Source of the DNA: a virus
DNA length: 64,000 nucleotides
Reading direction: 5' to 3' (one strand)
IMG/VR virus record: IMGVR_UViG_3300032047_000003
Coordinates: 32,001 to 96,000 of that record
Under the pieces are notes generated by a model that searched no databases, was not told where the DNA came from, and saw nothing but the letters and a program-made list of their open reading frames with translations. This document shows positions 13,718 through 49,826 of the stretch, piece by piece. The position numbers and the translations under genes are program-made. Each line of letters begins with the position of its first letter. Position 1 is the stretch's first letter.

Positions 13718-13726
13718 TTTATTTTT

Positions 13727-15961: not shown

Positions 15962-15973
15962 TTAAAATACCTC

Positions 15974-18340: not shown

Positions 18341-18343
18341 ATT

Positions 18344-23915: not shown

Positions 23916-26900
23916 TTAATTACCTTTTATATATTGCAACAACTGTCCCGAATCTTTTAGATATTTCAATCCAGGATCGTTTGCTCTTTCTGGGTTTCTG
24001 GAAACTATATGTTTATAAAACTCAGTACCCATTGCTTCGTTTTCGTCAATCGTATCAAAAACGCCTCTAAATGCATCATCTATTCCTGACACAATATCTC
24101 CTAAAATATTTTGCCATACTGAAGTTGGAGACCTAGTACTTACCCCCGCAAATAAAGGCTTCCCTTCTTTTACAATGGGAACAATAGTAACTGCTTCACT
24201 TTCCAACAATTTAGAAAAAATTATTGGAGCTGCAATAAGGTAACTGGAGCTAAACCTATCTAAAACTTGACTCGAGTTGTAATAATACTGATTGTCAACA
24301 CCTGCCATATACACTCCTCCTGAACCCCCAACCCCAGCTGCTTTTAAAAGCCCACCCGCATTAAGTTTCCACTTCCCCAGAAGCAGCAAAGATAAACCCG
24401 CACCTGTAAGGCCTATAGCCTTAGTCGCGAATTGACCAGCTGTACCTGTCGTAGGATTCAATGCATCGGCTGCAAAAAAAGCAGAAACTCCAAGGTCAAA
24501 TAAACTTTCAACTGTAGAAACAGCTTGATCTTGAAAATCGCTAAAATCTGAATTCAAAGAAGGGTTCTGGTTTCCTAAATCCTTAAAAAGCTTTTCGAGA
24601 TTAACAGTTGCTTTAACATTATTTTCCGTATTAGTTGTCTCTCCAAAAATATTTTTATCTATATCGACAACTTCTTTATACTCAATAATTCCATTTCGCA
24701 CTAAATCGCTATAGCGTTCTATCATCGAACTAGAAGCTTCATAAGACAAATTAAAACCATCTATATTCAAAGATACGTCTGGTGATTCTGGAATTATTCC
24801 TAATCTTTGCCCAAGAGTACCATACCCTATCTCTCCCAATTCTCGCGAAGTACTTTCATTCATTCTTTTTATTGCAGTGTCTAACTCTTCTTTATCCTTA
24901 CTGGTTGTAAGAATTGCTGGCAGGTTTTTATCTCCACCATATTGCTCATTTACTGAGCTCGCATCTGAACTAGAGCCTCTGTCTATAACACTTCTTTCCC
25001 TTGCTATGGCTCCTCCTACATATACTTTTAAAGCTTCTAGTACTGGCCAACTTGAAGATTCATTTCCAACAACAATCGCGTTCGGAACTATTTCCGTTAT
25101 ATATCCTGTTTCAAAAGAAAATATATGGGTTACTGATTTTACTTCAACTGGCCCGGACATTTTACTTTGATCGTCAAATAAAAAACAAACATCCCATGGT
25201 TTTACAGAAGGGTCTCCTAATATGGATATCTCTCCAGAATACATTTCTTTAACTCCATATATTAAACTTCCAATACCGTATCTTGTAGCCATGGCTCTAT
25301 CTCTTATATCGTATTTGTCTACGTTTTGACTAATTAAATTGCTGTCAGGTATATTGGAACTTGCTTTCATAAAGACACTTTTTTTATTGTTCGCATCATG
25401 CATATCTTTGTAATATACGTTCACGGAATTAACTGCATTCCTTTGAGAAACTGTGAAGTTGTTTCTAATCAAATTTTCCCTAGATCTAATTAGGTGATAA
25501 TTTCTAAACGGAACAAAACGATTTTCTAACCCTGTTAAATACTCTTTTAAAAGTCTTCCTCTTAGTTCAATTGTATTTCTGTTTAATTCTAGATCGTCCT
25601 TACTAATCGTCTGACCCTCAACATACCTTTCATCGACATTATTTTCGTCAGCAAGAAAATTTTCGATTTTAGAACCAAAAGTAGAAAACCTGTGATCCGC
25701 TCTATTATTTATAAACTCAATTAGTTTTTTTCTATCATTAATGTCAGAAAACGTTTCGTCTGCACGAATATCCGTTTCTATCGATCTTGCTTTATCTTTA
25801 AGCTTCAGGCGAGCTTCCCCTTTAGCAGCCATTCGCTCAAACTTTCTTTTTAGCTCTCTTTGACTCATCCCAGAATAACGTTTTGGTTTCTTCAACATCT
25901 CCTCCATCAAAAATAGTAAATTACTTCCGGTCTCATCCCAGGAATTGGTTTCATAATAATTCTGTCTATCCTTAAGGTCTGCTTCAGTCACTATTGCGTC
26001 TGGATTGTAAACTCCAATTGCTATATTCCAAGTATCTGTAAATTTCCTTTTTGACATAGCGGCATGATACTCGGCTCTGTTGTACGTAGTTTTTACTTGA
26101 TTTGCAACAGCAAGTAAATTTCTTGCTTTTCCCTTGAATTTAGACATAAGATTTTTTCGAGCTTTTTTCTTAAATTCCTCGTATTCTGCATCAGATATCT
26201 TTTTGGTTTTGTAATCTTCGTTGTACCCTTGCTTGAAAAATCGTTTCAAATCATCTTCATCATCAACATTTGCTGTTAGCAGCTCTCTTACTGAATTCAT
26301 TCTTTGAATAAAACCAGGAGTGGCCGGCTTGCTCCAGTATCTTTGAGATGGGATTCCAAAAAACATAGTATACCTAAACTCCTTTCCATAAGGAACTGCG
26401 CTGTAAATCCAACCAGGATGCCTTAGCGTCATTTCGTGAAAAACATCCCATATAGTGCTATTCTGAAGTTTATACCTACAAGCGTCAGGATGAACTCTTT
26501 TTAAATACAAAAGTGGGTTTACGTTTTGCCAGTCCTTTAAAAACTCCATTGCGCTTTTACCTTCAGCTCCAGAAAAATCCGAAAAAGCCATTTGGAACAA
26601 CATTCCTACTTTTTCGCTAACAGTCTTTTCTATATGCGTAAGATTGTGCATGTAGTAAATTGGACTAGGAGGATACAAGTTGTCATCTGAAGGATTTAAT
26701 TTAAAATAAACCAGTTCTTTGGTAAACCAATTTTGATAAAGCCTTCGATATTCTTTATGAGTATCTGTAAAACTCTTTCCAAAAATACCCCCTCCAATAT
26801 AATCTACTGCAAAAAAGAAAAGAGAAGTTTTAAAAAATATTGCCGTAGAGTTAAAAGTTGCACTTAGAGCAGTTGTTCCTAAAAATAACGGCGTACTTCC

Positions 26901-29900
26901 CCCGGCTCCTCTGAAGCCTTGCAAATAAACACTTCTTGCAAATGAAGGTTGAGAAACAGCAGCTATCATAAACCTTTCACTCGCTTTAAAAAGGTCAAAA
27001 ACTCTTTTAGTCAATTGGGGATTAGCAAGAACATCATCTGCACCTGAGACTGCGGTTCTTCCTATAATGGCAAAAATTTCATCTATTTCTTTCGTAAGCG
27101 TTTTAAACACAGCATAGCTGCTTCCTCTCGGCACAGCCTTTAAAGCAGTCTCTACACTTAGTAAAGATTTTCTCAGTGCTGTTTGCGTTAAAGATGTCGT
27201 CGCTGCTGAAAGTACCTTTACTTCAGCTGCCACTGTCTTTACAACGCTACTAGCCGCTCTCACCAAATCGTCTCCTATCCCAATAAAAAGATGCTTAAAA
27301 GCTCCTAAAGCAGCATCTCCACCTTGCGCAAGCCCTCTGCGCAGAGCAGTATATCCGCTAACAGTGCTGAAACCTCCTCTCATCAATGAACCAACCCTGT
27401 TAAGCCCCACTCTAGAAGCTAATCTTCCTAAGCTTCCTGACACGAAAGGAAAGAATCTGGGATTCATTAAACTCGCAACTGCTGTCCTTATATAACTAAA
27501 TGGAAGTCTCCATGCGGTTCTTGGCGCTAACTTAGACCCTCCTTCCACTGCTTTTACCGTAAACCCTCTTAAGCCAAATCCCGGAAGACCTACTTTTCCC
27601 AAACCAAGTCTTTTTGTAAAAAGAAAACTGATTCCAATACCCACTGAAGCAATAGCGGTTTCAAGCCCCCAATCAGACAAAAATCCTGCCCACTGTTTAT
27701 AGCCTTGAAGAGCAGACGGATCGCTATTGTCCTTATACCTAAAGAAATCCAATCTAGCATCTTGAGCTTCGCCGTATTGAAAAATCCTACCAGTCTCCCA
27801 TCTTCCAAAATGTTTTAATTCTGGAGAAAGCATTAAGCTGCCTAAAACTTGATGAGTAGCAAAATACTCTTTATTTTTTGAGTCTTCTTCGATACCTTTT
27901 AAGTGTTGAACTAGTTCAGTCCCAAAACTTTGAACAACTATTTCGCAAGTATCTCCTGCTCCGCCCCAACTAATATCTGTCACTCTCCCTGAAATTAAAA
28001 CCTCTAAGTTATCTGGATTGTTAGAATATCCAGCTCTAAGCTGGATATTCATTCCAGGCCTTAAAACAACTGCACTGAAAGGTTGGTCTGTATCTGACTC
28101 TAAATTAGAGTTATCAGCAGAATAAGAAACCAAAGTATTCCTGTCTTTTTTTTCAGAAGACTTATTCTCTCTTTTTATTCTTTCTACTCTTTTTTTCGAA
28201 AAATAATCAACATCAATCGTAGCTCCTTTTCTTGTTCCATCTAAAGTGCCTGCAATATTTTGCAATGAAATGATTGCTGAGTCTGCAGCATTCTCCCTGG
28301 ATCTTGAAACTGAAAAAGATCTAACCCCGTTAAAAGAATAAAAGTCATCCATGTTTATAAATCTACTTTCAAATTCGTCCTCTTCTATAAAGAATAATTT
28401 AAAAGTAGGATAAGCTCGAGAAAGTTTTTTCTTTTCCGTAAAAAGCCTCGCAGAGGAAGCCTTAGCTAAACTATTTAAACCTTCAAGTGAAAAAGTTTGA
28501 TTATAATTTGTTTGAGCCCCAAGGCCTCTCAGCTTAACGTCATTGAGTAAGGTTTCTACAGCCTTGCTGTTTTCGCTTTTTTCTTCGATCAAATCGCCTA
28601 CATATCCCGCTCCATTTCCAAACATATTCTCTATTTGCATTACTTCGTCTGATAGCATCGCTACAGAATTGACTTCTTCAAGCAAGTTTCCATTTTCATG
28701 AACATACAAAGCACTTGAATCATAACTGTTGTTTTTCACAATTGCCTTTAGGGGCTCGACTCCTGTGATTTCATGAACACGGTTGAAACCACTAATTGCA
28801 TCTGAAGGGCTTTGAACCCCTTGCTGCCCGTCCATTATATAGGAAGTGTCTATTCCTACTGCCCACCCTCCTACAGTAGCTGCACTGTCATAAAGCATCC
28901 CACCGAAACCAGAAGCTCCATCAGTTATTTTTGCTGACCACGGCTTAGTTATGGAACGGTTGCCATCAGCATCTATGAATCTTAAATACCTGTAGAGGGA
29001 AGTTCTCTGAGCAACTACTTGCTCTCTTGTCTCGGCTACATAGCTATTATCGTAACTAGAGCCATCTCCATTTTGGTCAAATTTAAAAACAAAGCTATCT
29101 TTTCCTTCTGATTCTTGAATCAAAGTAACGATTTCTTTTTTCAACGAATCGGTCAAATCATTTCTTTTTGCCTGCCCTGTAAAAAACGGACTGTTCGCTT
29201 CTCCCAAGTTTTTATACAAAACGTAATGCCCGTTACTATCGTAATAAGTATCGTAAGGGTAAAGAACGTTGTCGGTACCTTCATTGTTAGTGCTAAGACC
29301 TGAAGTGTTGTCGTTTGTAACATCTGTCGCATCTGAATCCGCAACCCTAATAGCAGTAATACTTTTGGACTCCATCTTTTTTAAATGTTTGTATGCTCCC
29401 TCTAAATAAACCTTTGAATTCCTTTCGATTTCATCTAGAAACTCTTTAGTTATTTTTGCTCCTCCATCATTATAAATATCCCACATGTAAAAAGCGGCTC
29501 CAGTCTCAAAATTACTTTGAGTGTAAAAAGGATGATTGGGCAAACCTAAATCAGGATAACACTCTATGCCGCTATATCTTTCAGAAGGAGGCACATAGTT
29601 ATAAGACTCATTTAAAAAGTCGATTCCCAACGCATAACAAACTTCTCTGTTTTTTTTCACTTCTTCTACAAAGCTTTTCAATTCATTTCTAAAAGCTTCA
29701 AGTTTTTTTAGTTCGTCGTCAGCATTTATATAGTTTGACAAATTGATTTCTTTTAAAACCTCAAGATCTGTTCTAATATCTCTAAATCGAAAGTTATTTG
29801 AAAGAGCAGCGCCTTTAGCATAACGACTCTCGTTTGCTGTTTCGCTAAGATATTTTACATCAGTTCCCAACATGCTTTCAATTTTAAGGTTACCCTTATC

Positions 29901-32900
29901 GTCAACATCACTCTTGAAGTTCGAATGCAGCCTTGTCATTAATTCTTCGGCTTTTGTAGAGTAGTACTTACTTAATGCAGAATTTGATCGATTTATAAGC
30001 ATTGACGTGGCTGCCAGCTTGTTTAAAGTCTCTGCAGAAAGTTTACCTGTTGGATTTCCGAAAAGATCAAATTCTTTAGTATATATTCCCGTTGAAGTAG
30101 GGTTTCCAGTCTTTAGACTCAGGCCATCCACCTTAATGGACTGCGATCCATAATGCGCAGATCTAAAAACCGCTTCAGTCCCTACTTCAATTCCCGATCC
30201 GATAAGACCGTAAGGAGTAAGTCTCGCCACATCTTTTCCAGTTTTTAGTGATCTTGCAACATCGTACACTAATAATCCTCCCCCTACCCCTTTTGCAATC
30301 GCCGCACCATTAGAAGCGCTGTAATCGAGTTTGTCAGGGTTATACTCTCCGTGAGCCGTAGTCTGAAACATACCTCCAAAACCTCTTTCAATAGAATTGA
30401 GGCCTACATTGAAGCCAGATCGAAGATCGTCTAGTCCGAATTCATTAATAATTCTTGGTTCTAAAAACCACTCGGAATACTGTTCAAAATATGACTCCAA
30501 CTGCTTGAACATTATGAATTTTTGAATCTTAGGAGGAGCGTCTTTATACGCGTCTTTTGAAAATTTCATATAAGCGTATGACTTAAGCAAAGTGAAATTA
30601 TTCTCAAGTAAATCCATTCCTCCAACTTTTGCCAAATTAATAGTATCCAAATAGTTAATATATTTTCCATGAACTTGATCCCGAGCATCTTTAAAAGCCA
30701 AAGCTCTTAAAGTTAATTGGGTTACAGTCGTCCCATCAAAAGCACTTCCTTGATCTTCCCAAAATAGAGAGTTAAGTCCGGTATTCATTGCCCCACCCCA
30801 ACCCATAGAACCTGATGTCGTTTCAAAATTTCCCAATCTTTGAACATTCGAAGATAAAAAAGTATTAATCGCTTTTTCATCTTCTGGATGAACGTTCCAT
30901 ATCGCAGTGGGTCCTGGAGTCACATGTTCGATCCCCTTATCTAACCTAAGATAAAGTTGTTCCGATATATTAAAGTTATGACTCAATTCTTCAGTTTCAC
31001 CAAGAAGATGATCTGCTATAAAGGACGGACCAAACACAGGAATGCCTCCCTGCAGTTCAATCTTCATGTAGTCATGGAGCAACTGGTCTACAGGGTGAAG
31101 GGGCGTATACATTGAATGCCCTCCGCGAGAATAAACTAAGGTGTTTTTATTAACGATTCCCCTTGCCTTCTTATGTATTTCTGTTATTCCTTGAGTCTCG
31201 ACAATAGGAATCTCCTTAAATAAAAAACCTTGCGCCCATCCTCCATCCGCGGCTTCTTCTCTATATGCGCCAGGTTTTGAAATATTTTGCAGAATTGGAT
31301 CCTCGGACAAATTGTTTTCCTTAGAAATGTAATCATAAAGGATTTCATTTAAAAGGTCTTGCGCCCTGATATACAGGTCCTTGGTGAGTTGAGAACGAAC
31401 CGCGTCGTTATAAAGTCCCGCCTCCACCGCTGCATTCCACGCACGCTCAGCCAAAGCCCTACATGCTAAGAAATCATTCCGAAAATTATTTCCATCTGCA
31501 AGAACCCTGTTGCCGTCTCTATCAATGTAAAAAGGCATCGTGTCGTTGCCTATAATTTGTTTTCTAAAATTGTATATAATGGCCAATTCTTCTTGTTGTT
31601 TTTTATCCGCATTGTTTGGCAGGCCGTTGGTATCTATATTCAAGTTTATTAAATCTTCTTGTTTTATTTCTATACTCGCATCTGTTTTTATACCTAACCT
31701 TTGATACTCGTCATTCAAACCACTTGATACCAACCTTATGACTTCGGAACTGGACAGTTCAATATTACCCGAGCTGCCGATTGCTAAAAGAAATGTTGTA
31801 GAAAGAGCTCTATTTAACTCATAGTAGAAAGAAGCTTTAAGTGCGCTATCAGACCCTGAATTACTTGCTTTAAAATATTCTACTAAATCCACAGGGGTTT
31901 CAATTTCGGAAATTTCTGGAGCACTTCCATCAGCTGGCCCTGTAACTAAATTGAAAAAGAAAACGCTTGCAATTTTTTCGTATTCTTCTTCTAGATTGTC
32001 GTACTCATCATATAGAACTCCGTAGTCTATACTTTGCTGGAATCGCTCTAAATCTCCTTTTGTCCAACCTAGAGCTCCGTTAAGGCTATCAAAAACTCCA
32101 TCTCCAACAACTTTTTCTTTAAGGAAATTATAGTTATAGTAAATATAATTTCTCCATAAAGAAGGACTAGCATTTAAATAATAACCTTCTACTTCAGATT
32201 CTTCTCCAGAGACATCGCTAGAGTTTATACTCCATTTATTTAAATCATATAAAGTTTCGTATGCTACTTTTTTCGAAATACCGCCGGCACTTTCTTCTGC
32301 AATCGTATGCCGTATTTTGCTTTCTATCGTCCCTAAAAGTTGAATAAAATAAATTAATTCATTTATTGTATTTTCACCAGTAAGAGCTTCTCTATCCTTA
32401 AACCAAGGGTAATCATCATAGAACTCTCTAAAATCCTCTTCTTCTAAATAAGAAAAGAACCCACCGTCTATGGTTTCAATCTCTTCCCCCGCATTATAGT
32501 ATTGCTTTACTATGCCTTCAAATTCATCTTCCCCTATCATATTTATAACTTCCTCTCCAAATCTGCTTTGTGCTATTTGTAACACTTTGTCTGAATCAGG
32601 CATAAGGTAGCCATTGTAGCTTACTTGAGGAGCAGATGCGTCAGCACTAAGCCGAGCAGGCGAATAGGATTTCTCTATAAAGTCTTTTGTATCAAGATCG
32701 TATTCTAGCACAGAATACTCTCCATTTTCCCATTTCCCCTTAAACTCTTTCAAATAGTTAATGACAAGAGCTTTTTTTGCTTCATCTTTAAGGCCTTCAT
32801 AAGAGGCTTTTTTTATGGCCAGTAATACGTCTGAATACTCTATATCTTTCTTGATTAAACTCTTTCTTTCCTTTACTACTTGCAGTTGCTCCACCTGAAA

Positions 32901-35891: not shown

Positions 35892-35893
35892 TT

Positions 35894-38800: not shown

Positions 38801-41800
38801 AAAACCAGAAGAAGCCATTCTGTTTGTCAGCGTTTTGTCTCCTGACAAGTCTAATAAAAAACCACCTTTTTGTTTTGAAAGAAAACTTCTAATTTCTTTT
38901 TCTGATGAATTCTGAACAAACTCATCCACTGAAACTCTTGGAACGTCTTCTTCAAATAAACTTCTGCTTGCAAAAGACTCCATCGTCTTTGAATATTCCC
39001 TTGCCATTGCAATATCTTCACCAGTATTTTTCTTTCTCGAAAGAATAGAAAACATAAAGTTGGAAACTTTTTCTTTGCTAACGCCCATTTCCTGAGTTAA
39101 TTTATGAGACAAAAAATTATATAAACGCGGCTCAATTGATCCCATATTCTGTCCCAAGCTAGAACTTTGAGGACCGATTTCCAAATTAGTCAAACCTAAT
39201 GCGACACCTTTCGAAACTTGTTTTTTTAATTTTTCTATGTACTTTTCGTAAGAACTGTTTTGGTCAACTGGAAGGCCCATTTCTCTATGTGTGTCTCTTA
39301 CTAAATTTTCAAAATCGCTTCCAGATACGCCTTCAACCGAATCGCCAAACATGCTTTTTGCAAAATAACCAAAAGTCAATCCCTGCTTTTCTATTGCTGT
39401 ATCGCTAATGTCGGTACCATATTTTTTAACTGCTAATTTTATTGCATTTTTTACCAAAGTATTATTTTGCTGAGATACGCTAAGATCGTTAAAAGCTTCT
39501 AGCGACATACCCCCTCTTTTGGTATCTGTCACTAAGCTTTCCAACTCTCTGCTAAAATCACTTTTAGCCACTCCCATTAAGATATCCAACGAGCTGCCAA
39601 TTTGCTCTGCTAAGTTCATTGATGCTTTTTTCAACATAGCCGCATCAGTTGTAAAAACGCCGCTAACATTATTATTGGCTGAACCAACTCTTCCAATAAT
39701 TGTATCGGTCAAACTAGAGCTTATTCCAGCTCTTTGTGTCAAAGTAGACCTCATGGTCTTTTCATTTGTTTTTTCAATTGTACCCTTGAACATAGTAGAA
39801 AAGATCTTCATAAAAGGATTATCTGTATCTCTGAAACCAGTAATCGAATACTTCCTAAGACCTCTTCCTTGACTGTCCAGTTCTTCCGTCAAGCCAAACT
39901 CTAAACCTTCAAGACCCGCATATCGCGGCAAGTATTGACGCCTTCCATCAATCATTCCAAGGTACAATCCAAAATTATCTTCCTTTGCTCCAAACAATCT
40001 AAAGAAATCAGTTATATCAGAATATATTAACTGGTTGGATTCAATTCTAACTTTACCTTCTAGACCTTTTTTAGTAATTAAATCGCTAACCACCTTGGAA
40101 GTTTTTTGAGTTTCTCCTCCCTTCACAACGCTTCCAAAAAAATCTGTAACAAATTCGCCCTGAGCATTTGTTCTCGTTCCAATATTGATATTTCGAATGC
40201 TTTCATCCCCCGTAGCAACTCTATGCTTTAGCTCTTCAAAAAGCACATTAGAGGCTCCCCCAAATTGTTGTGGATCGTAAACAGGTTTATTTATAGCTTT
40301 AGTAACTACTGTTTCTCCAAAATAATTTGCGGTACCTTCTCCTATTCCAAAAATATTTCTTCCCAAATTAAAAACATCTTTATCTCCTTTTCTTGACCCA
40401 GCTAAGACGTCCATAACAGCAATGCCCTTTGGTCTTCGCATTTCTACGCCTCCTTCATAAAGATTGATTGGCGGCGATTGATTTCCGGGATGCATATTGT
40501 ATCCAGCCCTACGTTTGCCTCCTCCCTGTCTTAAAAACTCTTCTCTATTGTACATCTGCCTAAATCTTGCAGTAATCGGCTGAGTTGCTCTATTGGTTAA
40601 AAGCCCTCCAAACTGCCTTTGAGCAGTTTCTATAACTCCGTCAGCAAAATTGCCCCCATACATCTGTTGCAAGAAAGCGCTACGCAATCCAATATCTCCC
40701 ATGCTTTGATTAAAATTACCAGAAGTAAATGGATTTGCTGAAAAGCCAAATAGATCCATTACTTGAGAAAGCATAGGTCTGAGATCCTTTTGATCTGCAG
40801 GCCCCAATCCTAAAGGGTTTATTATCTTCAAGCTATGTCCAGTTTGCCTATACTTTTGCTCTAGAAACATGGAGGTAGTTTCAGAGCCCGTAGAGCCTGT
40901 CCGAGCGCCAAACCTATCGATAAACTCTAAAGATTGCTGCATATTTTGATTTATTAAACTTATATCTCTAGAAGAAACTTTATCAATTCCACCTCTTTTG
41001 TCGACATTCGATATAAACATTTCCGCCAACGCTTGCTCCGGAGTCATAAACTTTCCTTTGGAAATTTTATCTAAAATCATTTGTTTCCTACCTGCAACGT
41101 CTTTTATTTTTGCTACCTCATTTAAATCTGACGCCTTAGCGTAAACTCCAGAACCCGCATACATGGTATTCATATTTCCATATCTAACTGGAAAAACTCC
41201 CTGACTGCTAAAATTACCCAAGCTCAAAGGTAAACTTTGAAGCTTTCTTCCACCTCTGTGTATTTCTACATAAGGCACCACTCCCGTTGTACTGCCTACT
41301 CTTTCCGTTCTAGTGTTAAATTGAAACGAGACTCCCGATCCAGAAAAAGCACTTTCTAAAGCTTGAAAAACTTTTGTGTTTTTGTATTTATTTATTAAGC
41401 CACTGCCTGATTCTATTGAATTCAATCCAGGTTGTATTCCCGAAAGGTTAACCTTTTGAGGTTGAACTAAAAGATCTGAAACGGGATGAAAAGGACTACT
41501 AGCGTATCCTGAAATTTTACTAATCCTATTGCTTCCAGAGGTTTCCGATTCAACAATTTCGTTAATTATTTCTTTTAAAGAATCAGAGTTTTGAGTTAAA
41601 TTTAATTCTCCTTGAAAAGACTGTTGAATTAAGTCTTCGACTACTTTCATCATAGTTCCAGTGCTATCTGAAATATTTGGATCTGCTAATACGGTTTTTA
41701 AATTAGCCAAAAAAGCAGTTTGTTCTTCCGCTTGCCTGACTGCTAATTTTCCTAAAAACTCATCAACATTTTTGAATCTTTTAATCGCGTTTTCTTTTGC

Positions 41801-42058
41801 AGCGGCTTTCACTTGAGACCTGACCATCTGATACCGGTCGAAAGACTCACCTACTTTCGAATGCACATCTCCCATCTGATTAGTAGGTAGATTTGCTAAA
41901 AAATTAGGATTATTAGACTTCATAGATTGAACGCTTTGATAGGACGCAAATCCTAATGGTCCTAAACCAAAAGCAGTATTAAGTAAAGCATTTCCTTTTG
42001 CTTTTAAATCATCAACAGTGTCTGAATCTTTATTAAAAAACGGTAATTTAAAAGCCAT
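35894..42058 (-). CDS. Putative single-chain two-barrel (double-psi beta-barrel) virion RNA polymerase with tape-measure-like termini
   Basis: GDFDGD (DFDGD at 37223-37237), RHP (~37853-37861), LRGK (~38534-38545) and MKIFSTMFKGT (~39779-39811) occur in beta-then-beta' order. Start moved from the GTG at 42064 to the ATG at 42058, which follows a GAGGTG SD. Confidence 0.75.
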   Translation of the reverse strand: MAFKLPFFNKDSDTVDDLKAKGNALLNTAFGLGPLGFASYQSVQSMKSNNPNFLANLPTNQMGDVHSKVGESFDRYQMVRSQVKAAAKENAIKRFKNVDEFLGKLAVRQAEEQTAFLANLKTVLADPNISDSTGTMMKVVEDLIQQSFQGELNLTQNSDSLKEIINEIVESETSGSNRISKISGYASSPFHPVSDLLVQPQKVNLSGIQPGLNSIESGSGLINKYKNTKVFQALESAFSGSGVSFQFNTRTERVGSTTGVVPYVEIHRGGRKLQSLPLSLGNFSSQGVFPVRYGNMNTMYAGSGVYAKASDLNEVAKIKDVAGRKQMILDKISKGKFMTPEQALAEMFISNVDKRGGIDKVSSRDISLINQNMQQSLEFIDRFGARTGSTGSETTSMFLEQKYRQTGHSLKIINPLGLGPADQKDLRPMLSQVMDLFGFSANPFTSGNFNQSMGDIGLRSAFLQQMYGGNFADGVIETAQRQFGGLLTNRATQPITARFRQMYNREEFLRQGGGKRRAGYNMHPGNQSPPINLYEGGVEMRRPKGIAVMDVLAGSRKGDKDVFNLGRNIFGIGEGTANYFGETVVTKAINKPVYDPQQFGGASNVLFEELKHRVATGDESIRNINIGTRTNAQGEFVTDFFGSVVKGGETQKTSKVVSDLITKKGLEGKVRIESNQLIYSDITDFFRLFGAKEDNFGLYLGMIDGRRQYLPRYAGLEGLEFGLTEELDSQGRGLRKYSITGFRDTDNPFMKIFSTMFKGTIEKTNEKTMRSTLTQRAGISSSLTDTIIGRVGSANNNVSGVFTTDAAMLKKASMNLAEQIGSSLDILMGVAKSDFSRELESLVTDTKRGGMSLEAFNDLSVSQQNNTLVKNAIKLAVKKYGTDISDTAIEKQGLTFGYFAKSMFGDSVEGVSGSDFENLVRDTHREMGLPVDQNSSYEKYIEKLKKQVSKGVALGLTNLEIGPQSSSLGQNMGSIEPRLYNFLSHKLTQEMGVSKEKVSNFMFSILSRKKNTGEDIAMAREYSKTMESFASRSLFEEDVPRVSVDEFVQNSSEKEIRSFLSKQKGGFLLDLSGDKTLTNRMASSGFPSQIYLPGGDNFLELLERERTLIPTDDAFREIDADYIKTLSRFSRSLVEVSKAQSNTEAIGMALRGLDDFKDSMSEFFGISFRKTLRGKMSGSTFGLGGTVDTGRFHDEFLGLKIGRESGEIEITGNVFEKTKSGNYRMNQSVGLQKRVDIFSDFASSLDKQTYDTYVSTMRESKNTRISQKERDAAKRKGMNILNNVVIGKDEMKGYLSKSLGSTNYTNEEKYLMRKIQRVTFGHAVFQDSTSFLNAMSSFSSGVNAQYVMQNAVSKGVDPKQAVKKARVDSKRATRDALQYFFLSSYDQSSPSLANIAIASRHPVMGSAHVEFVGAFRELSELRGKDNIFEKLLETKGGKRAAQDFYNLTGNEVKGFKDLLTFVKQGPKNIQTPSDQHVLDYMKGRNLLKIESMEESLLSMSDPESMAELQQSIDDIKGKNTRIDQAIASGNYDQELQAGMTKIKNRVTVKGERHKVLRSFFDAMRNHMGEISPGVGGGRISIPQFMVDVHYGGKMERMDLSLAGGMIGDFDGDIYQLLFPTRSNLGEKEINLLGKKGKANLENIAKQKLLYRAKTRVLFSMAGEGIDNLRRSIGDVDRSLIEEIAVKARQEQLGKNVGPIDVSFDALRLGIVNTADESTRKVASDALNLLSAIQEVAVIKAKKLPTDIPLAEAISRNINAAIQGDVSAFDTVEKLFKDYLFREVDLDVTFGKTNVVGGGVDVLADSLEGQKVINLFAPGGTNSAEDALSYVMPYLRSLLPHVSEAGYLHAKTERRLSIASKQELGAYHEMFQGLLRNNVQGQLMGSNIEQTTMSDLEEAMRTIGTLMRTNAVEIGSRGRIGSLGVGLAATMALGSGLGYGGYDPVPLSMEGEMVSPELKAAIREGNAFEAGPSQEAVQNMQNSIENDIMNRQINIGQVLADSPGGFQMRGMAHNMRSVSELSYIVGAMGGQSHFTINDTRGPVSENYIRRKFFGD

Positions 42059-45000
42059 ATTCACCTCTAATGTATTGCTCTATAATAGCACTTCTGTCAT
42101 CATTCATGTAGAAAACTCCAGAAGTATTTGTTCCAAATCTATTTACATTCATTTGCCCTGTAAAAGGAACGTTGTCCAATTCAGATCTACCTGCAGTTCT
42201 TAAAACAGAACCTAAGTTTAAGCCTCTTCCCATTTCTTCTACAATTGGGTTTTCTACGCCTTCCAAATAGGGCATTCGGGCCTGAAGCCTTAATCTTTGA
42301 TTATACATGTCTAAGTCTCCTAAATCGATTCCAGTTCTATCTGCATATCTTATCTTTACGTCATCCATTTCTACATCTTCGTGCCATCCCACCCAGTCTG
42401 TGCCTGGCATAGGTTTTTCGTAAAAATATTCTTCCAAGCTGGCCAACTTCATTTTTAAATACCTTTCATCAATTTGATTTTTATAGCCTGGGTTTAAAGT
42501 TGGATCGCCAGCATCCAATCTACTCCAAAGACCTATGTAAAGGTCCCTGTTGTCTTCCGGAACCATTTCAAGAATTCTCTCTCTATCTTTTTCTGAAGCC
42601 ATAGAAAAAGCATCAAAAAAAGCTTTTTCTCCTTCTGGCAATGCTTCGTAAATAGCCATAGCATGAGCCTGAGGATTAACCCCAAAAGTAGTCTTAGAAG
42701 CCCTGTAAAGAGCCTGCCTTTTTAAATTACTATCTCCCATTGCTTCAGCTCTATCTGCAATTTTCATCTGTTGAATGAACTGCAATTTGTCAAAATATTC
42801 ATTAGTTTCATTTGCTTTTCTTCTAAAACCTGGGACGTCGCTATAGCCCATTATATGAGCAGCAGAATAGAAGGAAGGTCTAAACCAATCACGAATAGGC
42901 TTATCCCAAAAAGAATTAACCGTACCATAAAGTCTTTCTTGCTCATAAGACTCTATAGCAGAAATCCCCATGTAAGAAGGATCTGTTAATAGCTTTTGCG
43001 AAGGTCTAAATCCCATTGGAACCAAATATTCTGCAGGGGCTAGCCCTGTTTTTAAAACACTCCTAGCAGTTCTACCTATAGCCCTTGTTGTATCGCCCAG
43101 AAAGGGGATGTCATATGCATCTGGATCCATTTCCCTAATACTTTTGTCAGACATTTTTTCATTAAGCATTTTGTCCGTTTTATCCATGTAGGATTCAACA
43201 GCTCTATTCATTTTGCCCGAAGCTCTTTGCTTGTACATGTTTTCTCTAAGCATAATAAACTCTCTAGAGTGAGGAGCTATATCTGCTAGAATGGAATATT
43301 TAAAAATATCTGGGTAGTTTTCAGGACTTATGTTTTTTAATTCAGGATGAATAGCAGCATAACCTGCTCCAGGAAGTCTTACCTCGCCATACTTTACATT
43401 TCTATATGGATCTCCATATTTAAACCTATCAGGCATCCAAGTAGGCATTGAATTGACAATTGGATTATAGTGTTGAATCATAGACCTTTCTCTTGGCAGA
43501 AAACGTCTAATCGGTTCAGTAGTAAAGAACCCGCCGCCTAGTTCTTTTTTCCAAAAGTCTTCTTTTGCCGAAAACATTTTACCCGCACTTTCTAAAACAG
43601 GTCTTTGTATTCCAAAAGTTTCTTCTCCCGTAAGAGCTTTTGTATACATGTTTTTAGCCCAACCGGTAAGACCTTCAAGCTCTCTAAACTGATACTGCAA
43701 TTCTCCCGCTACAAAACTGCTGGAAAACGGAGACATTGGCTTGCCAGGGCTAATACCCCCCAGCTTTCCGCTAGGCCCTTTGTATTCGTTTCTGTGAGCA
43801 AACTCAACGTCTCCTTGTTCGTTAACCCTCATAAACTCATTTACATGCATCAACTTTGGAGGTTTAATTAAACGGCCTACCGTGGCTGACAAAAGCTTTC
43901 CAATTACCGGCACATTTTCAAAAGCTCCCCCAGTTATAGGATAGGGCCTGTCGTAGTAGTTTTCTCTTTCCAGTTGATAAGTAAAGTTTTCTAACAAAAA
44001 GTTGTGTATCGGAGATCGATTGACTTTATACCTTGCTTTATCTGTCGCCTGAGACATGTAAGCTACATAGTCATGTGGTCTGAAATACGAAACACCCTTA
44101 CCTTCATAAGAACTTCCGCCGCCCTCCCACCAGCGCCCTTTTCTCACCTCTACTAGTTGCCTTCCAGAGTATATTTCATTAAGCTCTGTAGGACCCTTCA
44201 TAGACCCAAGAAGGCCACCAGTTACAAACTGTTGAGCTAGCAGACCTCCAAGAAATAAACTTCCGTATCTGCCAAATTTAGTTTTATAGTTTAATTTCTT
44301 CGCAGCCTCAGTAAAGCCTTCACCTTCTTTTGTTGCTCCAAAAAACGAATGTATTATAGAAGCGTTAGCAGTTTCAATTTTCTTTCTAATCCCGCCAAAC
44401 ATTGAAGTGTCATCTATATACCTTGCGTCAATTTCTTCAAGCTTTCTTAAAAAAGACTGATTCATCGGATTGTTTAACCCTGATTCCATTTCTTTTTTAA
44501 CTGCAAGTCCTTGCTCGAATCTTAACGACAGCTCTTCTTGAATCGCTGCAAGTCCTTTTTCACCGAATTCCCTTTTGCTGACGTCCATAAGTAACGAAGA
44601 CAATTTCATTCTTGAGAAATTAGATTCAGATTCCAATAACTCTCTAAGTAAAATATTTTCGTCAACCGTCATTGCGTCGATTAACGTTCTAGGCCCTTTA
44701 AAAATTCTATCTGCTTTTTCGGTTAAAAACCCTTCGCCCTTTATTCCTGCTTGCGTAAATTCTTTTGCTACTGGAAACTCTGTAAAAAACATCGATCTTA
44801 CAGATTGCTTTTGGTAGTATCGTAAACCTCTACTAACTAAAGCATTTTCGTCAAATGCAATTTCAGGAGAAATGCCTAGTTTTATTTTTTGCGATTCATC
44901 TAACTTTTCATATATTCTGCTAGAGATAGGTTTGCCACTGGCTCCACTGGCTAGAGCCAAAGAAAGACCTACAAAAGCCCCCGTCTTCCAATCGGAAACT

Positions 45001-46286
45001 CCTGGAAGAATGCCTTCCATAGTCCTCCTGTAAGAATTCATGAATGTGACTTCTCCTAAAGCTGCGGTTGCGATATGAGCATTCTTGTACATGGTATAGG
45101 CGCCGGCTCCAATTCCTTGATCGAAGCCGGGCAGTATAAGCTGAGCTGCAAAAGCAGCGCCTGCAAACATTCTAGTTTTTTTAGGATCTAAAGTTTTAAA
45201 TAGTTTTTGAGCAGCATGCCCACCCGCCAAAGAAGTCGCAGCGGAAAATACAACATTTCCTAAAAAACCAGTTTCACTTCTCCAATAGTCGGCTTCTTTT
45301 AAACCTACTCCCAATGCACCGAGCTTAAAGGCTTTAAAGCCAAACCTCATAAACATTTCAGAAGCCCTTCCAGGCTTAACCGTAAGCCCTAAGCCAAAAG
45401 AGCTTTCTAATTTGCTTGAAAGCCTATTAACTACAGGGACTTGCTCTGTAGCAGTTTCAAGAAGTCTGTTGGTTCTGTCTAAGCCAAAAGCAAAAATACT
45501 TCTAAAGAAAGTAAACTTGTCGTTTGACTTCACAGACTTTATCGGAAGGAACATCGATTTGTTTTCTTTTTTTACGTCATCGATTACTTCTGAATAAGAA
45601 AATATCCTTTCAAATGCTCTTCTAGTATTGGTTCCAAAATCATCGGCAAAGCCTTGAGCCAAACCATACGCATAAGCTACCGGATTCGTAACTGGAAGTC
45701 GAGAGCCAAATCTTCCGCTCCTACTATCGAAAGAAGTTCGTTGAAGCAAAGACACCTTGTTCGAAACAAGACGTCTTTCATCTCCCTGTTCGAAGAACAA
45801 AGAACCTTGAGTAGACCCTTTTTCTATCTCATAGGAAAAGCTATATCGACCCTTGCCTATGTCTAAGAAAGCAGACCCAAACTCTTCTTCAAGAACTTTT
45901 AACTCTTTTCCAAATTCTTTTTCAAGAAAAACTCTAGTCTCTTTAGAAGCAGACATTTTTTCATCAAAAACGTACTTATAGAAACCATCTTTTTCAACTA
46001 AATCAAGTCCAGAAGGCGAACTAAATGGAGATAAAAATTCAGCAGGTCTAAAGGTATTAAGTAAAGCGGCAGGCGAATTATACGCTATTTGGCGACCGTA
46101 CCTTCTAACGTGATCTAGATAGGTTCCCTCTCCGTATTTTATCTGACTTGAAGCAAATGCCGCTCCGCCTAGGAGACCAAGACCTCCTAGGTAAAACGCA
46201 CCTCTTTCGGTAGGGTTTTCGTAAGGTTCATATTGCGAAGCACTGTACAGTAAAGACTCGCTACCATATCCAATTCCAGGCGGCAT
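42048..46286 (-). CDS. Tape-measure-like / ejected membrane-associated protein (1412 aa)
   Basis: Occupies the canonical tape-measure slot right after the tail assembly chaperones; helical-looking, with several Gly/Ala-rich hydrophobic segments (LGGLGLLGGAAFA, FAGAAFAAQLILPG, GAFVGLSLALASG, GSLFLGGLLAQQFVTGGLLG). Confidence 0.6.
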   Translation of the reverse strand: MPPGIGYGSESLLYSASQYEPYENPTERGAFYLGGLGLLGGAAFASSQIKYGEGTYLDHVRRYGRQIAYNSPAALLNTFRPAEFLSPFSSPSGLDLVEKDGFYKYVFDEKMSASKETRVFLEKEFGKELKVLEEEFGSAFLDIGKGRYSFSYEIEKGSTQGSLFFEQGDERRLVSNKVSLLQRTSFDSRSGRFGSRLPVTNPVAYAYGLAQGFADDFGTNTRRAFERIFSYSEVIDDVKKENKSMFLPIKSVKSNDKFTFFRSIFAFGLDRTNRLLETATEQVPVVNRLSSKLESSFGLGLTVKPGRASEMFMRFGFKAFKLGALGVGLKEADYWRSETGFLGNVVFSAATSLAGGHAAQKLFKTLDPKKTRMFAGAAFAAQLILPGFDQGIGAGAYTMYKNAHIATAALGEVTFMNSYRRTMEGILPGVSDWKTGAFVGLSLALASGASGKPISSRIYEKLDESQKIKLGISPEIAFDENALVSRGLRYYQKQSVRSMFFTEFPVAKEFTQAGIKGEGFLTEKADRIFKGPRTLIDAMTVDENILLRELLESESNFSRMKLSSLLMDVSKREFGEKGLAAIQEELSLRFEQGLAVKKEMESGLNNPMNQSFLRKLEEIDARYIDDTSMFGGIRKKIETANASIIHSFFGATKEGEGFTEAAKKLNYKTKFGRYGSLFLGGLLAQQFVTGGLLGSMKGPTELNEIYSGRQLVEVRKGRWWEGGGSSYEGKGVSYFRPHDYVAYMSQATDKARYKVNRSPIHNFLLENFTYQLERENYYDRPYPITGGAFENVPVIGKLLSATVGRLIKPPKLMHVNEFMRVNEQGDVEFAHRNEYKGPSGKLGGISPGKPMSPFSSSFVAGELQYQFRELEGLTGWAKNMYTKALTGEETFGIQRPVLESAGKMFSAKEDFWKKELGGGFFTTEPIRRFLPRERSMIQHYNPIVNSMPTWMPDRFKYGDPYRNVKYGEVRLPGAGYAAIHPELKNISPENYPDIFKYSILADIAPHSREFIMLRENMYKQRASGKMNRAVESYMDKTDKMLNEKMSDKSIREMDPDAYDIPFLGDTTRAIGRTARSVLKTGLAPAEYLVPMGFRPSQKLLTDPSYMGISAIESYEQERLYGTVNSFWDKPIRDWFRPSFYSAAHIMGYSDVPGFRRKANETNEYFDKLQFIQQMKIADRAEAMGDSNLKRQALYRASKTTFGVNPQAHAMAIYEALPEGEKAFFDAFSMASEKDRERILEMVPEDNRDLYIGLWSRLDAGDPTLNPGYKNQIDERYLKMKLASLEEYFYEKPMPGTDWVGWHEDVEMDDVKIRYADRTGIDLGDLDMYNQRLRLQARMPYLEGVENPIVEEMGRGLNLGSVLRTAGRSELDNVPFTGQMNVNRFGTNTSGVFYMNDDRSAIIEQYIRGEYGF

Positions 46287-46963: not shown

Positions 46964-46967
46964 GGAA

Positions 46968-48518: not shown

Positions 48519-48521
48519 TAA

Positions 48522-49736: not shown

Positions 49737-49742
49737 TGCAGT

Positions 49743-49797: not shown

Positions 49798-49826
49798 AAA
49801 TTGTTTTTTAAACTAGAAAGATACTA

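What the first reader, a model, noticed from the sequence alone, without database searches (positions are those of the whole stretch)
23916..46286. Three giant tandem genes (22 kb) may form an injection-and-transcription module
Seen: where one tape-measure gene and a modest hub are expected there are three tightly coupled giants: 1412 aa (many hydrophobic Gly/Ala segments), ~2054 aa (RNAP motifs, hydrophobic ends) and 3991 aa (M23 peptidase, hydrophobic basic insert, hub motifs), about 35% of the window. Inference: they act together to cut peptidoglycan, form a membrane channel and deliver or tether the RNAP, possibly coupling transcription to genome entry. This is analogous to the three large ejected proteins of crAss-like phages, but here in a sheath-tube-baseplate context.
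Basis: inference. Interest (0 to 1): 0.8.

Follow-up and report, generated by a model that had tools for sequence, protein, structure and literature searches.

The report
Tail-gene trio with hidden RNA polymerase
Three giant back-to-back tail genes of an uncultured marine contractile-tailed phage are a conserved set, and the middle one is a hidden single-chain RNA polymerase, so the phage probably delivers its own transcription enzyme through the tail.

Summary
Three tightly coupled minus-strand genes (G1 1412 aa, G2 2056 aa or 2054 from the ATG, G3 3991 aa) fill 35% of the window. They lie between the tail-chaperone-like genes and the baseplate wedge of a myovirus of the Bacillus phage 0305phi8-36 lineage.

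- **Synteny:** the trio is kept in the same order in 13 of 13 related IMG/VR loci. Phages 0305phi8-36, vB_BceM_WH1 and Acinetobacter ME3 have the same layout, and in 0305phi8-36 the first two proteins were found in virions by mass spectrometry.
- **G2:** it has no Pfam, PHROG, NCBIfam or PDB sequence match. Its family keeps DxDxD, RxP and a lysine pair invariant, or nearly so, at about 20-25% identity. A confident AF2 model (pLDDT 84) is closest to RDR2 and QDE-1 (Z about 10, more than 300 aligned residues) and to RNA polymerase beta-prime-type subunits.
- **G3:** it is the hub, with an intact M23 peptidase.
- **G1:** it is a large, strongly conserved helical family of unknown fold with Gly/Ala-rich hydrophobic segments. 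Some relatives carry inteins.

Delivery through the tail, channel formation and coupling of transcription to DNA entry are inference only. The closest precedent is the tape-measure-fused virion polymerase of Thermus phage P23-45, not the crAss-like phages. This scan has already flagged this same gene, and similar tape-measure-slot polymerases on other DNA.

The parts
42048..46286 (-). G1, 1412 aa: conserved helical virion-protein family (homolog of 0305phi8-36 gp145, WH1 gp096 and ME3 gp035). Fold and function unknown.
   Evidence: tblastn and phmmer to gp145 and gp035; at least 219 database clusters at 42-88% identity with no Pfam domain; AF2 pLDDT 74, mostly helical, no PDB fold match above Z 6; BFVD matches to gp145 and WH1 gp096.
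44925..45356 (-). G1 residues 311-454: cluster of four Gly/Ala-rich hydrophobic helices, the candidate membrane-active part.
   Evidence: Kyte-Doolittle 1.07-1.09. AF2 places helices here, and weak VIA matches (Z about 5) to transmembrane helix hairpins fall within G1 residues about 325-400. Membrane insertion is inference.
42051..42110 (-). G1 C-terminal motif (..MNDDR..I..), shared with the C-terminus of G2.
   Evidence: Conserved in G1 and G2 homologs of 10 loci; D1396 and R1398 are invariant in G1.
35894..42064 (-). G2, 2056 aa (probably 2054 from the ATG at 42058): single-chain two-barrel RNA polymerase in the tape-measure slot.
   Evidence: 111 representative homologs; invariant motifs; AF2 model plus VIA and BFVD fold matches.
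36395..39967 (-). G2 residues 700-1890: the modelled polymerase core. A beta-like barrel region lies at the start and a beta-prime-like region at about 1032-1886.
   Evidence: AF2 pLDDT 83.8, pTM 0.81. RDR2 Z 10.2 over 318 aa and QDE-1 Z 10.1 over 349 aa. Vaccinia, Pol I and Pol II largest subunits and bacterial beta-prime give Z 7-8.3 over 350-417 aa.
37223..37237 (-). G2 D1610-F-D-G-D1614, the metal-binding aspartate triad.
   Evidence: All three Asp are invariant in 57/57 full-length homologs.
37853..37861 (-). G2 R1402-H-P1404, an RxP motif like Rpb1 R446/P448.
   Evidence: R in 56/57 and P in 57/57; ME3 gp036 has ASREP 43 residues before its GGDHDQD.
39785..39808 (-). G2 K753..K760, a conserved lysine pair in a beta hairpin; candidate counterpart of the two active-site lysines of the beta-type barrel.
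   Evidence: K753 56/57, F755 56/57, K760 54/57. They lie in strands 54-56 and 61-63 of the model, inside the range aligned to QDE-1 and RDR2. Residue-level equivalence was not shown.
35897..36304 (-). G2 C-terminal tail: hydrophobic Gly-rich segment 1921-1939 and the terminal motif INDTR.P....YI.R..G.
   Evidence: KD 1.39. D2039, R2041 and P2043 are invariant. The motif resembles the G1 C-terminus and the end of 0305phi8-36 gp146.
23916..35891 (-). G3, 3991 aa: baseplate hub megaprotein (homolog of 0305phi8-36 gp147 and ME3 gp037).
   Evidence: phmmer E 4e-32 and 8e-25; collinear BLAST blocks; PHROG 20474 and 8809; gp147 is a T4 gp27/P2 gpD hub homolog according to PMC2147016.
33825..34082 (-). 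G3 residues 604-689: M23 peptidoglycan metallopeptidase.
   Evidence: Pfam PF01551 E 3.2e-17, 63 bits against a cut-off of 28.7; PDB and NCBIfam M23 matches; HKGID and HLH motifs present.
27762..28664 (-). G3 residues about 2410-2710: conserved hub block 1; overlaps the match to gp147 residues 843-1010.
26637..27764 (-). G3 residues 2710-3085: acid-poor, hydrophobic insert splitting the hub blocks.
   Evidence: D+E 6.6%, G+A+S 29.5%, LIVFM 31%; hydrophobic peaks at 2741-2764 and 3002-3042; partly conserved in relatives.
24879..25661 (-). G3 residues 3411-3671: conserved hub block 2; matches gp147 1336-1411 and ME3 gp037 1803-1971.
   Evidence: There is also a weak profile hit (E 0.015) to chain 9euf_E, named 'Peptidase C51 domain-containing protein | ORF56'.
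46292..47717 (-). Two small genes (223 and 249 aa) just upstream of G1, always found with the trio. The 249-aa protein matches the 0305phi8-36 gp143 'tail chaperonin' ORF and the corresponding ME3 ORF.
   Evidence: phmmer E 2e-5 (0305phi8-36) and 3e-9 (ME3); conserved in all 13 loci.

Best explanation
The three genes are the tail-core set of a marine branch of the 0305phi8-36 myovirus lineage.

Shown here:
- G3 is the baseplate hub and carries an M23 cell-wall peptidase.
- G2, in the slot where these phages are annotated to have their tape measure, is a single-chain two-barrel RNA polymerase with a fully conserved active-site signature.
- G1 is a conserved, largely helical protein with Gly/Ala-rich hydrophobic helices.
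- G1 and G2 end in a related C-terminal motif.
- The three genes are always found together and in this order.

Inferred:
- G1 and G2 are made late and loaded, elongated, into the tail tube, with their similar C-termini docked at the hub.
- On contraction, the hub peptidase cuts peptidoglycan, and G1 and G2 are expelled ahead of the DNA.
- Their hydrophobic segments, and possibly the G3 insert, help to cross the inner membrane.
- G2 refolds at the cytoplasmic face and transcribes the first genes of the entering genome. The likely start sites are the T-rich repeated signal heading the small-gene cassettes at one genome end.

Which of G1 and G2 sets tail length is unresolved.
For: **Conserved trio**
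- Order tube, tube paralog, three small genes, G1, G2, G3 in 13/13 IMG/VR loci.
- Same layout in 0305phi8-36, ME3 and WH1.
- 0305phi8-36 gp145 and gp146 are virion proteins by mass spectrometry, according to the record's annotation.

**G2 as a polymerase**
- 57/57 full-length homologs at about 20-25% identity keep D-x-D-x-D. R1402 (56/57), P1404 (57/57), K753 (56/57) and K760 (54/57) are also kept.
- AF2 model: pLDDT 83.8, pTM 0.81.
- In an unbiased comparison with 48,161 PDB chains, ranks 1 and 2 are RDR2 (Z 10.2, 318 aa) and QDE-1 (Z 10.1, 349 aa). All eight rows with more than 150 aligned residues are two-barrel RNA polymerases, including the non-virion polymerase gp62 of P74-26.
- A second look gave about 40 RNAP largest-subunit chains, mostly bacterial beta-prime, with 270-417 aligned residues.
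- A same-size G1 model gave no such hits, which serves as a negative control.

**Link to a cultured phage**
- A BFVD piece from ME3 that matches, by its length, the second half of gp036 is hit with probability 1.00.
- gp036 has ASREP followed by GGDHDQD.

**Late expression argues for packaging**
- G2 sits inside the tail operon, overlapping G1 and 2 nt from G3.

**Other support**
- Shared C-terminal motif of G1, G2 and gp146.
- Phage-specific T-rich signal in about 7 copies (6 to 8 by family) before small genes at genome position 108.3-111.1 kb, and absent from the window.
- Experimental precedent for a tail-borne two-barrel polymerase with a DFDGD motif: P23-45 gp96 (PMC10770324).
Against: - There is no direct evidence that any of the three proteins is in this phage's virion, in the tail lumen, or ejected.
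- No segment reaches the usual transmembrane hydrophobicity threshold.
- Structural Z scores are moderate (7-10). I had no residue-level superposition, so the equivalence of K753/K760 to the beta-barrel lysines is not proven. No counterpart of Rpb2 D837 was identified.
- G2 has no detectable sequence similarity to gp96, gp146, gp036 or the YonO-like orf99.
- 0305phi8-36 gp146 and WH1 gp095, in the same slot, lack a DxDxD triad, so the slot does not always hold an active polymerase.
- A folded 226-kDa enzyme does not fit a tube lumen of roughly 4 nm (general knowledge), so an unfolded or extended state must be assumed.
Confidence: 0.6

Rival explanations
1. G2 is an active virion RNA polymerase, but it is stored in the capsid as an ejection protein, like N4 vRNAP or the crAss-like polymerases. 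In that case G1 is the true tape measure, and the trio is a gene-order habit rather than a physical unit in the tube.
For: - G1 follows the chaperone-like genes directly, is mostly long helices, and has a nearly constant length: 1306-1478 aa in the loci, and 1338-1495 aa for the full-length database homologs once fragments and insert-bearing forms are set aside.
- G2 length varies from 1668 to 3049 aa.
- A large globular enzyme is easier to house in a capsid (general knowledge).
Against: - G2 lies between the tail chaperones and the hub, and is translationally coupled to both neighbours.
- It shares its C-terminal motif with G1 and with gp146, the protein assigned as tape measure in 0305phi8-36.
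- In P23-45, the one tested case of a polymerase in this slot, it is part of the tape measure protein (PMC10770324).
Confidence: 0.17
2. G2 is only a structural tail protein (tape measure or plug) that descends from a polymerase. The fold is exapted and no transcription is carried out.
For: - The proteins in the same slot of WH1 and 0305phi8-36 have no aspartate triad.
- WH1 gp095 is nevertheless the best BFVD structural match (E 1.5e-5, probability 1.00).
- 0305phi8-36 has a separate YonO-like polymerase, orf99.
Against: In the G2 family the three Asp are invariant, and the RxP motif and the lysine pair nearly so, across 57 sequences that share only about 20-25% identity. That pattern is expected for a working active site, not a relic. 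No other RNA polymerase was found in the 111.6-kb record, although it is only about 73% complete.
Confidence: 0.1
3. G2 is a non-virion polymerase that happens to be encoded in the tail operon. It is made late and used in the same cell, for example for late transcription or priming, and is not packaged.
For: The top fold matches are RNA-dependent polymerases (RDR2, QDE-1), so the template and role are open. The archaeal DNA polymerase PolD also belongs to the two-barrel class (PMC10770324).
Against: - The position is strictly fixed between G1 and the hub in every relative.
- The C-terminal tail is shared with neighbouring virion-type proteins.
- A polymerase first made with the tail genes comes too late to drive the infection cycle (inference).
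- The counterpart in 0305phi8-36 is a virion protein.
Confidence: 0.08

Closest known systems
Thermus phage P23-45 gp96, a tape-measure-fused virion two-barrel RNA polymerase (Chaban et al. 2024, PMC10770324; PDB 8H2M, 8H2N)
   Same: - A two-barrel polymerase with a DFDGD triad, encoded in the tape-measure position of the tail module.
- No sequence similarity to other polymerases, so it is recognisable only by motif and fold.
- A proposed role in transcribing the first genes from AT-rich phage-specific promoters as the DNA enters.
   Different: - P23-45 is a non-contractile siphovirus. Its polymerase is the N-terminal fifth of one 5,002-residue protein that also holds the ruler, membrane and metallopeptidase parts.
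- Here the phage is contractile-tailed, and the polymerase core fills the C-terminal two thirds of a separate 2,056-residue protein.
- The peptidase sits on the hub (G3) and the hydrophobic helical protein (G1) is a separate gene.
- No sequence homology was detected.
- gp96 lacks a clamp, whereas the G2 model aligns with beta-prime from its N-terminal region onward.
gp145 / gp146 / gp147 of Bacillus phage 0305phi8-36 (Hardies et al. 2007, PMC2147016), with the same set in vB_BceM_WH1 and Acinetobacter phage ME3
   Same: - Same gene order after sheath, tube and chaperonin genes.
- G1 is homologous to gp145 and G3 to the hub gp147.
- gp145 and gp146 are virion proteins.
- The C-terminal tail of gp146 resembles that of G2.
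   Different: - gp146 and WH1 gp095 have no aspartate triad and no detectable sequence similarity to G2.
- gp146 was assigned as tape measure from tail length.
- 0305phi8-36 encodes a separate YonO-like polymerase (orf99).
- ME3 gp036 does carry the RxP and DxDxD motifs, but it has not been described as a polymerase in the papers searched.
QDE-1 / RDR2 / YonO / phi14:2 gp66 clade of single-chain two-barrel polymerases
   Same: The best structural matches are RDR2 and QDE-1. G2 is a single chain with the beta-like barrel ahead of the beta-prime-like barrel.
   Different: Pfam RdRP (PF05183) does not match G2. A profile comparison with the YonO-like orf99 found nothing. The barrel carrying the triad has an insertion of about 200 residues between RxP and DxDxD.
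Ejected giant proteins of crAss-like phages
   Same: Several very large proteins, one of them a two-barrel virion polymerase, are thought to leave the particle with the DNA.
   Different: From my own knowledge, crAss-like phages are podoviruses whose cargo is stored in the capsid and muzzle, and the genes are not placed between tail chaperones and a contractile-tail hub. No homology to G1, G2 or G3 was found in the phage records.

Membership tests
Two-barrel (double-psi beta-barrel) RNA polymerase superfamily (G2) | DxDxD metal-binding triad in the beta-prime-type barrel | tested here: met
   DFDGD at 1610-1614; all three Asp are invariant in 57/57 full-length homologs.
Two-barrel (double-psi beta-barrel) RNA polymerase superfamily (G2) | Conserved R-x-P upstream of the triad (Rpb1 R446/P448; PMC2919709) | tested here: met
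   R1402 in 56/57 and P1404 in 57/57, at the end of a strand of the barrel in the model. The equivalence rests on motif, order and fold, not on a residue-level superposition.
Two-barrel (double-psi beta-barrel) RNA polymerase superfamily (G2) | Two invariant lysines in the beta-type barrel (Rpb2 K979/K987) | tested here: inconclusive
   K753 (56/57) and K760 (54/57) lie in a beta hairpin upstream, inside the range aligned to QDE-1 and RDR2. No residue-level alignment was available.
Two-barrel (double-psi beta-barrel) RNA polymerase superfamily (G2) | Acidic residue of the beta-type barrel (Rpb2 D837) | tested here: inconclusive
   No conserved acidic column was identified near 700-750 in the 57-sequence alignment.
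Two-barrel (double-psi beta-barrel) RNA polymerase superfamily (G2) | Overall fold like the catalytic core of known members | tested here: met
   AF2 pLDDT 83.8. RDR2 Z 10.2 (rmsd 4.2, 318 aa), QDE-1 Z 10.1 (rmsd 7.4, 349 aa), vaccinia Rpo147 Z 8.1 (382 aa), P74-26 gp62 Z 7.8 (304 aa). About 40 RNAP largest-subunit chains, mostly bacterial beta-prime, give Z 6.7-8.3 over 270-417 aa.
Two-barrel (double-psi beta-barrel) RNA polymerase superfamily (G2) | Template-dependent RNA synthesis | not testable with these tools
   Needs an enzyme assay.
Tape-measure-fused virion RNAP of the P23-45 gp96 type (G2) | Polymerase encoded in the tape-measure position of the tail module | tested here: met
   G2 lies between the chaperone-like genes (one gene removed) and the hub in all loci.
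Tape-measure-fused virion RNAP of the P23-45 gp96 type (G2) | Same polypeptide carries a long ruler region with membrane and metallopeptidase domains | tested here: not met
   G2 is conserved along its whole length. It has one short C-terminal hydrophobic segment and no peptidase; the M23 domain is on G3.
Tape-measure-fused virion RNAP of the P23-45 gp96 type (G2) | Sequence homology to gp96 | tested here: inconclusive
   Neither phmmer nor a 22-sequence profile against all PDB chains gave a polymerase hit. The paper states that gp96 structures are deposited in the PDB. gp96 itself has no detectable similarity to other polymerases (PMC10770324).
Tape-measure-fused virion RNAP of the P23-45 gp96 type (G2) | Presence in virions and transcription of the earliest genes | not testable with these tools
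   This is an uncultured phage. There is only indirect support: the 0305phi8-36 protein in the same slot is a virion protein, and a T-rich signal array lies at the genome end.
0305phi8-36-type tail-core trio | G1 homologous to gp145, G3 homologous to hub gp147, same order after sheath, tube and chaperonins | tested here: met
   phmmer E 1e-45 (G1/gp145) and 4e-32 (G3/gp147). The tube, sheath and chaperone-like genes also match.
0305phi8-36-type tail-core trio | Middle giant homologous to gp146 | tested here: inconclusive
   No significant BLAST, HMM or hhalign match. The best local hit is the last 66 residues (E 0.06), which share the ..DDR..YIDRG tail.
Peptidase M23 (G3 residues 604-689) | Pfam PF01551 above the gathering score, with HxxxD and HxH zinc ligands | tested here: met
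   63 bits against a cut-off of 28.7; HKGID and HLH present.
T4 gp27 / P2 gpD baseplate hub (G3) | Homology to hub domains 1 and 3 | tested here: inconclusive
   The link is only transitive. G3 2484-2663 and 3532-3607 match gp147 (E 2e-14 and 1e-14), and PMC2147016 links gp147 to gp27/gpD. There was no direct Pfam hit, and profiles against the PDB gave only E 0.015 to chain 9euf_E, 'Peptidase C51 domain-containing protein | ORF56'.
Tail tape measure protein (G1 or G2) | Protein length sets tail length | not testable with these tools
   No particle images exist. G1 length is nearly constant and G2 length varies 1.8-fold.

The most novel reading that the evidence does not exclude
In the whole 0305phi8-36 lineage the 'tape measure' slot holds a descendant of a tail-borne two-barrel RNA polymerase. 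It is still active in the marine branch and in Acinetobacter phage ME3. In the Bacillus branch it has become catalytically dead and purely structural, and a YonO-like enzyme took over transcription there. G1, G2 and the hub would then form a three-part machine in which a contractile tail injects a polymerase that starts transcription at the membrane while the DNA enters. G1 would have an essential, still unknown active site, marked by three intein insertion points.
Probability: 0.3. Interest if true: 0.85.

Novelty: new variant of a known kind. Interest (0 to 1): 0.66.

Why it matters
Only one tail-borne virion polymerase has been shown experimentally, in a long-tailed hot-spring siphovirus. 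This locus shows a sequence-unrelated polymerase family in the same slot of contractile-tailed phages. The family is widespread in marine metagenomes: 111 representative clusters for G2 and more than 219 clusters for G1. Here the job is split among three conserved giant genes rather than fused into one.

A likely member exists in a cultured phage, ME3 gp036. How a 226-kDa enzyme travels through a contractile tail, and whether transcription is coupled to DNA entry, therefore becomes directly testable. The result also questions the 'tape measure' label on the middle giant in this lineage, and singles out G1 as a large conserved family of unknown function.

Tried and rejected
- **Family libraries:** Pfam, PHROGs and NCBIfam gave nothing for G1 or G2.
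- **PDB by sequence:** single sequences and profiles gave nothing relevant for G1 or G2.
- **tblastn:** G2 against 50,697 phage records gave no match.
- **Foldseek:** the G2 model against the PDB gave only helical-repeat noise. The polymerase signal appeared only with VIA-align.
- **ESM Atlas:** no usable lead for G1 or G2.
- **Profile comparisons:** HMM and hhalign comparisons of the G2 family with 0305phi8-36 gp146, ME3 gp036 and the YonO-like orf99 found nothing significant.
- **RdRP in the genome:** Pfam RdRP was not found in the window's genome. That search also rang in no control genome over the cut-off, so it says little.
- **Possible second polymerase:** I neither confirmed nor excluded that reading.
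- **G1 fold:** the best PDB match was Z 6.0 over about 55 residues of helical hairpin, so no assignment was made.
- **G3 hub profiles:** no clear PDB hub match.
- **Technical failures:** a 57-sequence full-length alignment failed in the alignment tool and timed out in a script. A faster MAFFT mode and a 22-sequence set were used instead.
- **Complex prediction:** not run, because the hub region is too long for the size limit and the docking site is unknown.

Full report
**Observation.** All genes of the window lie on the minus strand.
- G1: 42048-46286, 1412 aa.
- G2: 35894-42064, 2056 aa from a GTG.
- G3: 23916-35891, 3991 aa.

Together they cover 22,371 nt, 35% of the window. They are tightly packed: G1 and G2 overlap, G2 and G3 are 2 nt apart, and G3 and the next gene 1 nt apart.

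PHROG scans place them in a contractile-tail structural module. Portal, major capsid protein, a 964-aa sheath, tube and a tube paralog lie upstream, and a gp6/J-like baseplate wedge lies downstream.

**Lineage and synteny.** G1 matches virion proteins of Bacillus phages 0305phi8-36 and vB_BceM_WH1 and of Acinetobacter phage ME3. The annotated records show the same layout in each: sheath, tube, tube paralog, 'tail chaperonins', then three giants.
- 0305phi8-36: gp145 1930 aa, gp146 2537 aa ('hypothetical tape measure'), gp147 1903 aa (hub/'endolysin').
- ME3: gp035, gp036, gp037.
- WH1: gp096, gp095, gp094.

Hardies et al. assigned gp146 as tape measure mainly from tail length, and showed gp147 to be a divergent T4 gp27/P2 gpD hub (PMC2147016).

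A scan of IMG/VR with a G2 alignment returned 13 loci. In every one the order is tube, tube paralog, three small genes, G1, G2, G3. G1 is the best conserved of the three and G2 the least.

**G2 is a two-barrel RNA polymerase.** G2 has no Pfam, PHROG, NCBIfam, PDB or phage-record match. An exhaustive HMMER search found 111 representative homologs, about 60 of them full-length (1650-2400 aa).

Every full-length homolog has a D-x-D-x-D motif, usually GDFDGD, about 440 residues from the C-terminus. In a 57-sequence alignment at about 20-25% identity:
- D1610, D1612 and D1614 are invariant.
- R1402 (56/57) and P1404 (57/57) form an RxP motif like Rpb1 R446/P448.
- K753, F755 and K760 are kept in 54-56 of 57.

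These correspond to seven of the eight residues that Ruprich-Robert and Thuriaux list as universal for this class (PMC2919709). The eighth, an acidic residue, I could not place.

An AF2 model of residues 700-1890 is confident (pLDDT 83.8, pTM 0.81). Foldseek against the PDB gave only noise. An exhaustive VIA-align comparison with 48,161 chains ranked maize RDR2 first (Z 10.2, rmsd 4.2, 318 aa) and QDE-1 second (Z 10.1, 349 aa). All eight rows with more than 150 aligned residues were two-barrel RNA polymerases:
- the vaccinia, Pol I, Pol II, Pol IV and archaeal largest subunits;
- the non-virion polymerase gp62 of Thermus phage P74-26.

A second look produced about 40 RNAP largest-subunit chains, mostly bacterial beta-prime, with 270-417 aligned residues spanning model residues 333-1187. 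An equally large G1 model gave nothing of this kind, so the result is not a generic effect of model size. I had no coordinates, so residue-level equivalences remain inferred.

**Relation to cultured phages.** In BFVD the G2 model matched two phage proteins at probability 1.00.
- One is an 802-residue second piece of an ME3 protein.
- The other is a 1258-residue second piece of A0A7R7G2L5.

The piece lengths equal half of ME3 gp036 (1603 aa) and half of WH1 gp095 (2515 aa). The companion accession A0A7R7G1P3 matches G1, with the half-length of WH1 gp096. These identifications are inferred from lengths.

ME3 gp036 carries ASREP at 1172-1176 (R at 1174) and GGDHDQD from 1215, with its first Asp at 1217. 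This parallels ASRHP and GDFDGD in G2. WH1 gp095 and 0305phi8-36 gp146 have no such triad. 0305phi8-36 has a separate YonO-like polymerase, orf99. The slot may therefore hold an active polymerase in some branches and a degenerate one in others. This is a hypothesis.

ME3, Acinetobacter and 0305phi8-36 do not appear in the supplementary files of Chaban et al., which include their survey of viral two-barrel polymerases. No paper found in the searches describes gp036 as a polymerase.

**G3.**
- Pfam M23 matches residues 604-689 above the cut-off, and both zinc motifs are present.
- Collinear conserved blocks are shared with relatives: 48-320, 608-1084, 2060-2250, 2410-2830, 2975-3240, 3410-3670 and 3823-3967.
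- Blocks at 2484-2663 and 3532-3607 match the hub gp147.
- The insert at 2710-3085 is acid-poor and hydrophobic, and it is partly conserved.
- A direct link to gp27 could not be shown.

**G1.** G1 belongs to a large family: at least 219 clusters, 42-88% identical over the C-terminal 800 residues. Full-length members have nearly constant length, and none has a Pfam domain.

The AF2 model of residues 213-1412 (pLDDT 74) is mostly helical, with helices of up to 55 residues. It has no PDB match above Z 6. Six Gly/Ala-rich segments are moderately hydrophobic.

Three relatives show large insertions. In two of them, canonical inteins (Cys start, HN|S end) interrupt the most conserved motifs, GRWWE|GGG, |EPIRRFLPR and DWxGWH|. 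This points to an essential site.

G1 and G2 end in a related motif ([IVM]-N-D-[DT]-R ..), and 0305phi8-36 gp146 ends similarly. A common docking site is a reasonable inference, but I did not test it.

**Mechanism.**
- Shown: a hub with a wall peptidase; a polymerase with an intact catalytic signature; a conserved helical, hydrophobic partner; strict co-occurrence; and a late-operon position.
- Inferred: loading of G1 and G2 in the tube; ejection on contraction; membrane passage helped by the hydrophobic segments; and early transcription by G2.

In support of the last step, a T-rich signal (about CTTTTTTaTTT....TTTAGTGG) precedes small plus-strand genes in about 7 copies (6 to 8 by family) at genome position 108.3-111.1 kb. 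It is absent from the window. This recalls the AT-rich pre-early promoters read by P23-45 gp96 (PMC10770324). Which of G1 and G2 measures the tail is open: G1 has the constant length and G2 the slot.

**Comparison and novelty.** The closest known system is P23-45 gp96, but there are three differences:
- The family here is sequence-unrelated to gp96.
- It sits in a contractile tail.
- The ruler, membrane, peptidase and polymerase parts are spread over three genes.

I rate it a new variant of a known kind. Earlier notes of this scan flagged this same gene as a candidate polymerase (e1-6054924, e1-6054932). They also report tape-measure-slot polymerases on other DNA (for example e1-6049976 and e1-5632467). 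I did not rely on those notes for evidence.

Noticed in passing
G1 homologs P0171 and P0220 (proteins); the sites correspond to window G1 residues about 721, 924 and 1302: Canonical inteins (Cys start..HN|S end, Hint/LAGLIDADG Pfam domains) interrupt three different highly conserved motifs of the G1 family. This is unusual for a supposed structural tail protein and hints at an essential active site.
   Followed up: partly
L016:12290-15115 (genome 108,290-111,115, beyond the window's end): About 7 copies (6 to 8 by family) of a T-rich signal (about CTTTTTTaTTT....TTTAGTGG) lie about 50 nt ahead of small plus-strand genes with a shared ribosome-binding-site context. One weaker copy lies at genome position 22,592 and none in the window. 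It is a candidate promoter for the phage polymerase.
   Followed up: partly
L018:19517-27064 (WH1 gp095) and L001:22002-29615 (0305phi8-36 gp146): The middle giants of the Bacillus phages lack any DxDxD triad and show no BLAST similarity to each other or to G2. Yet the second half of WH1 gp095 is the best BFVD structural match to the G2 polymerase core. It may be a degenerate polymerase serving as tape measure.
   Followed up: partly
L002:20646-25457 (ME3 gp036): This 'hypothetical protein' of a cultured Acinetobacter jumbo phage carries ASREP at 1172-1176 (R at 1174) and GGDHDQD from 1215 (first Asp at 1217). A BFVD piece from ME3 of the matching half-length fits the G2 core at probability 1.00. 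It is probably an unannotated polymerase.
   Followed up: partly
window 47730-50489: The tube gene (220 aa) is followed by two genes with tube-like parts (421 and 262 aa), as in 0305phi8-36. PHROG 9206, which matches the tube, is labelled 'major head protein'; this appears to be inherited mis-annotation.
   Followed up: no
L016:6709-10968 (minus strand; genome 102,709-106,968): A 1420-aa ORF two genes (by transcription order) before the large terminase gene has a staphylococcal-nuclease domain (E 6e-15) and nothing else recognisable. The hub homolog of BtI1 is also reported to carry such a domain (PMC2147016).
   Followed up: no
window 1-19210: Seven large ORFs (656-1348 aa) downstream of the baseplate genes have no PHROG match at all, and the one also scanned against Pfam (window 1-4044) has no Pfam match. 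They are presumably fibers or outer baseplate parts of a poorly sampled lineage.
   Followed up: no
window 42058-42064: The ORF finder starts G2 at a GTG, but all homologs align from the ATG two codons downstream, so 42058 is the likelier start.
   Followed up: yes
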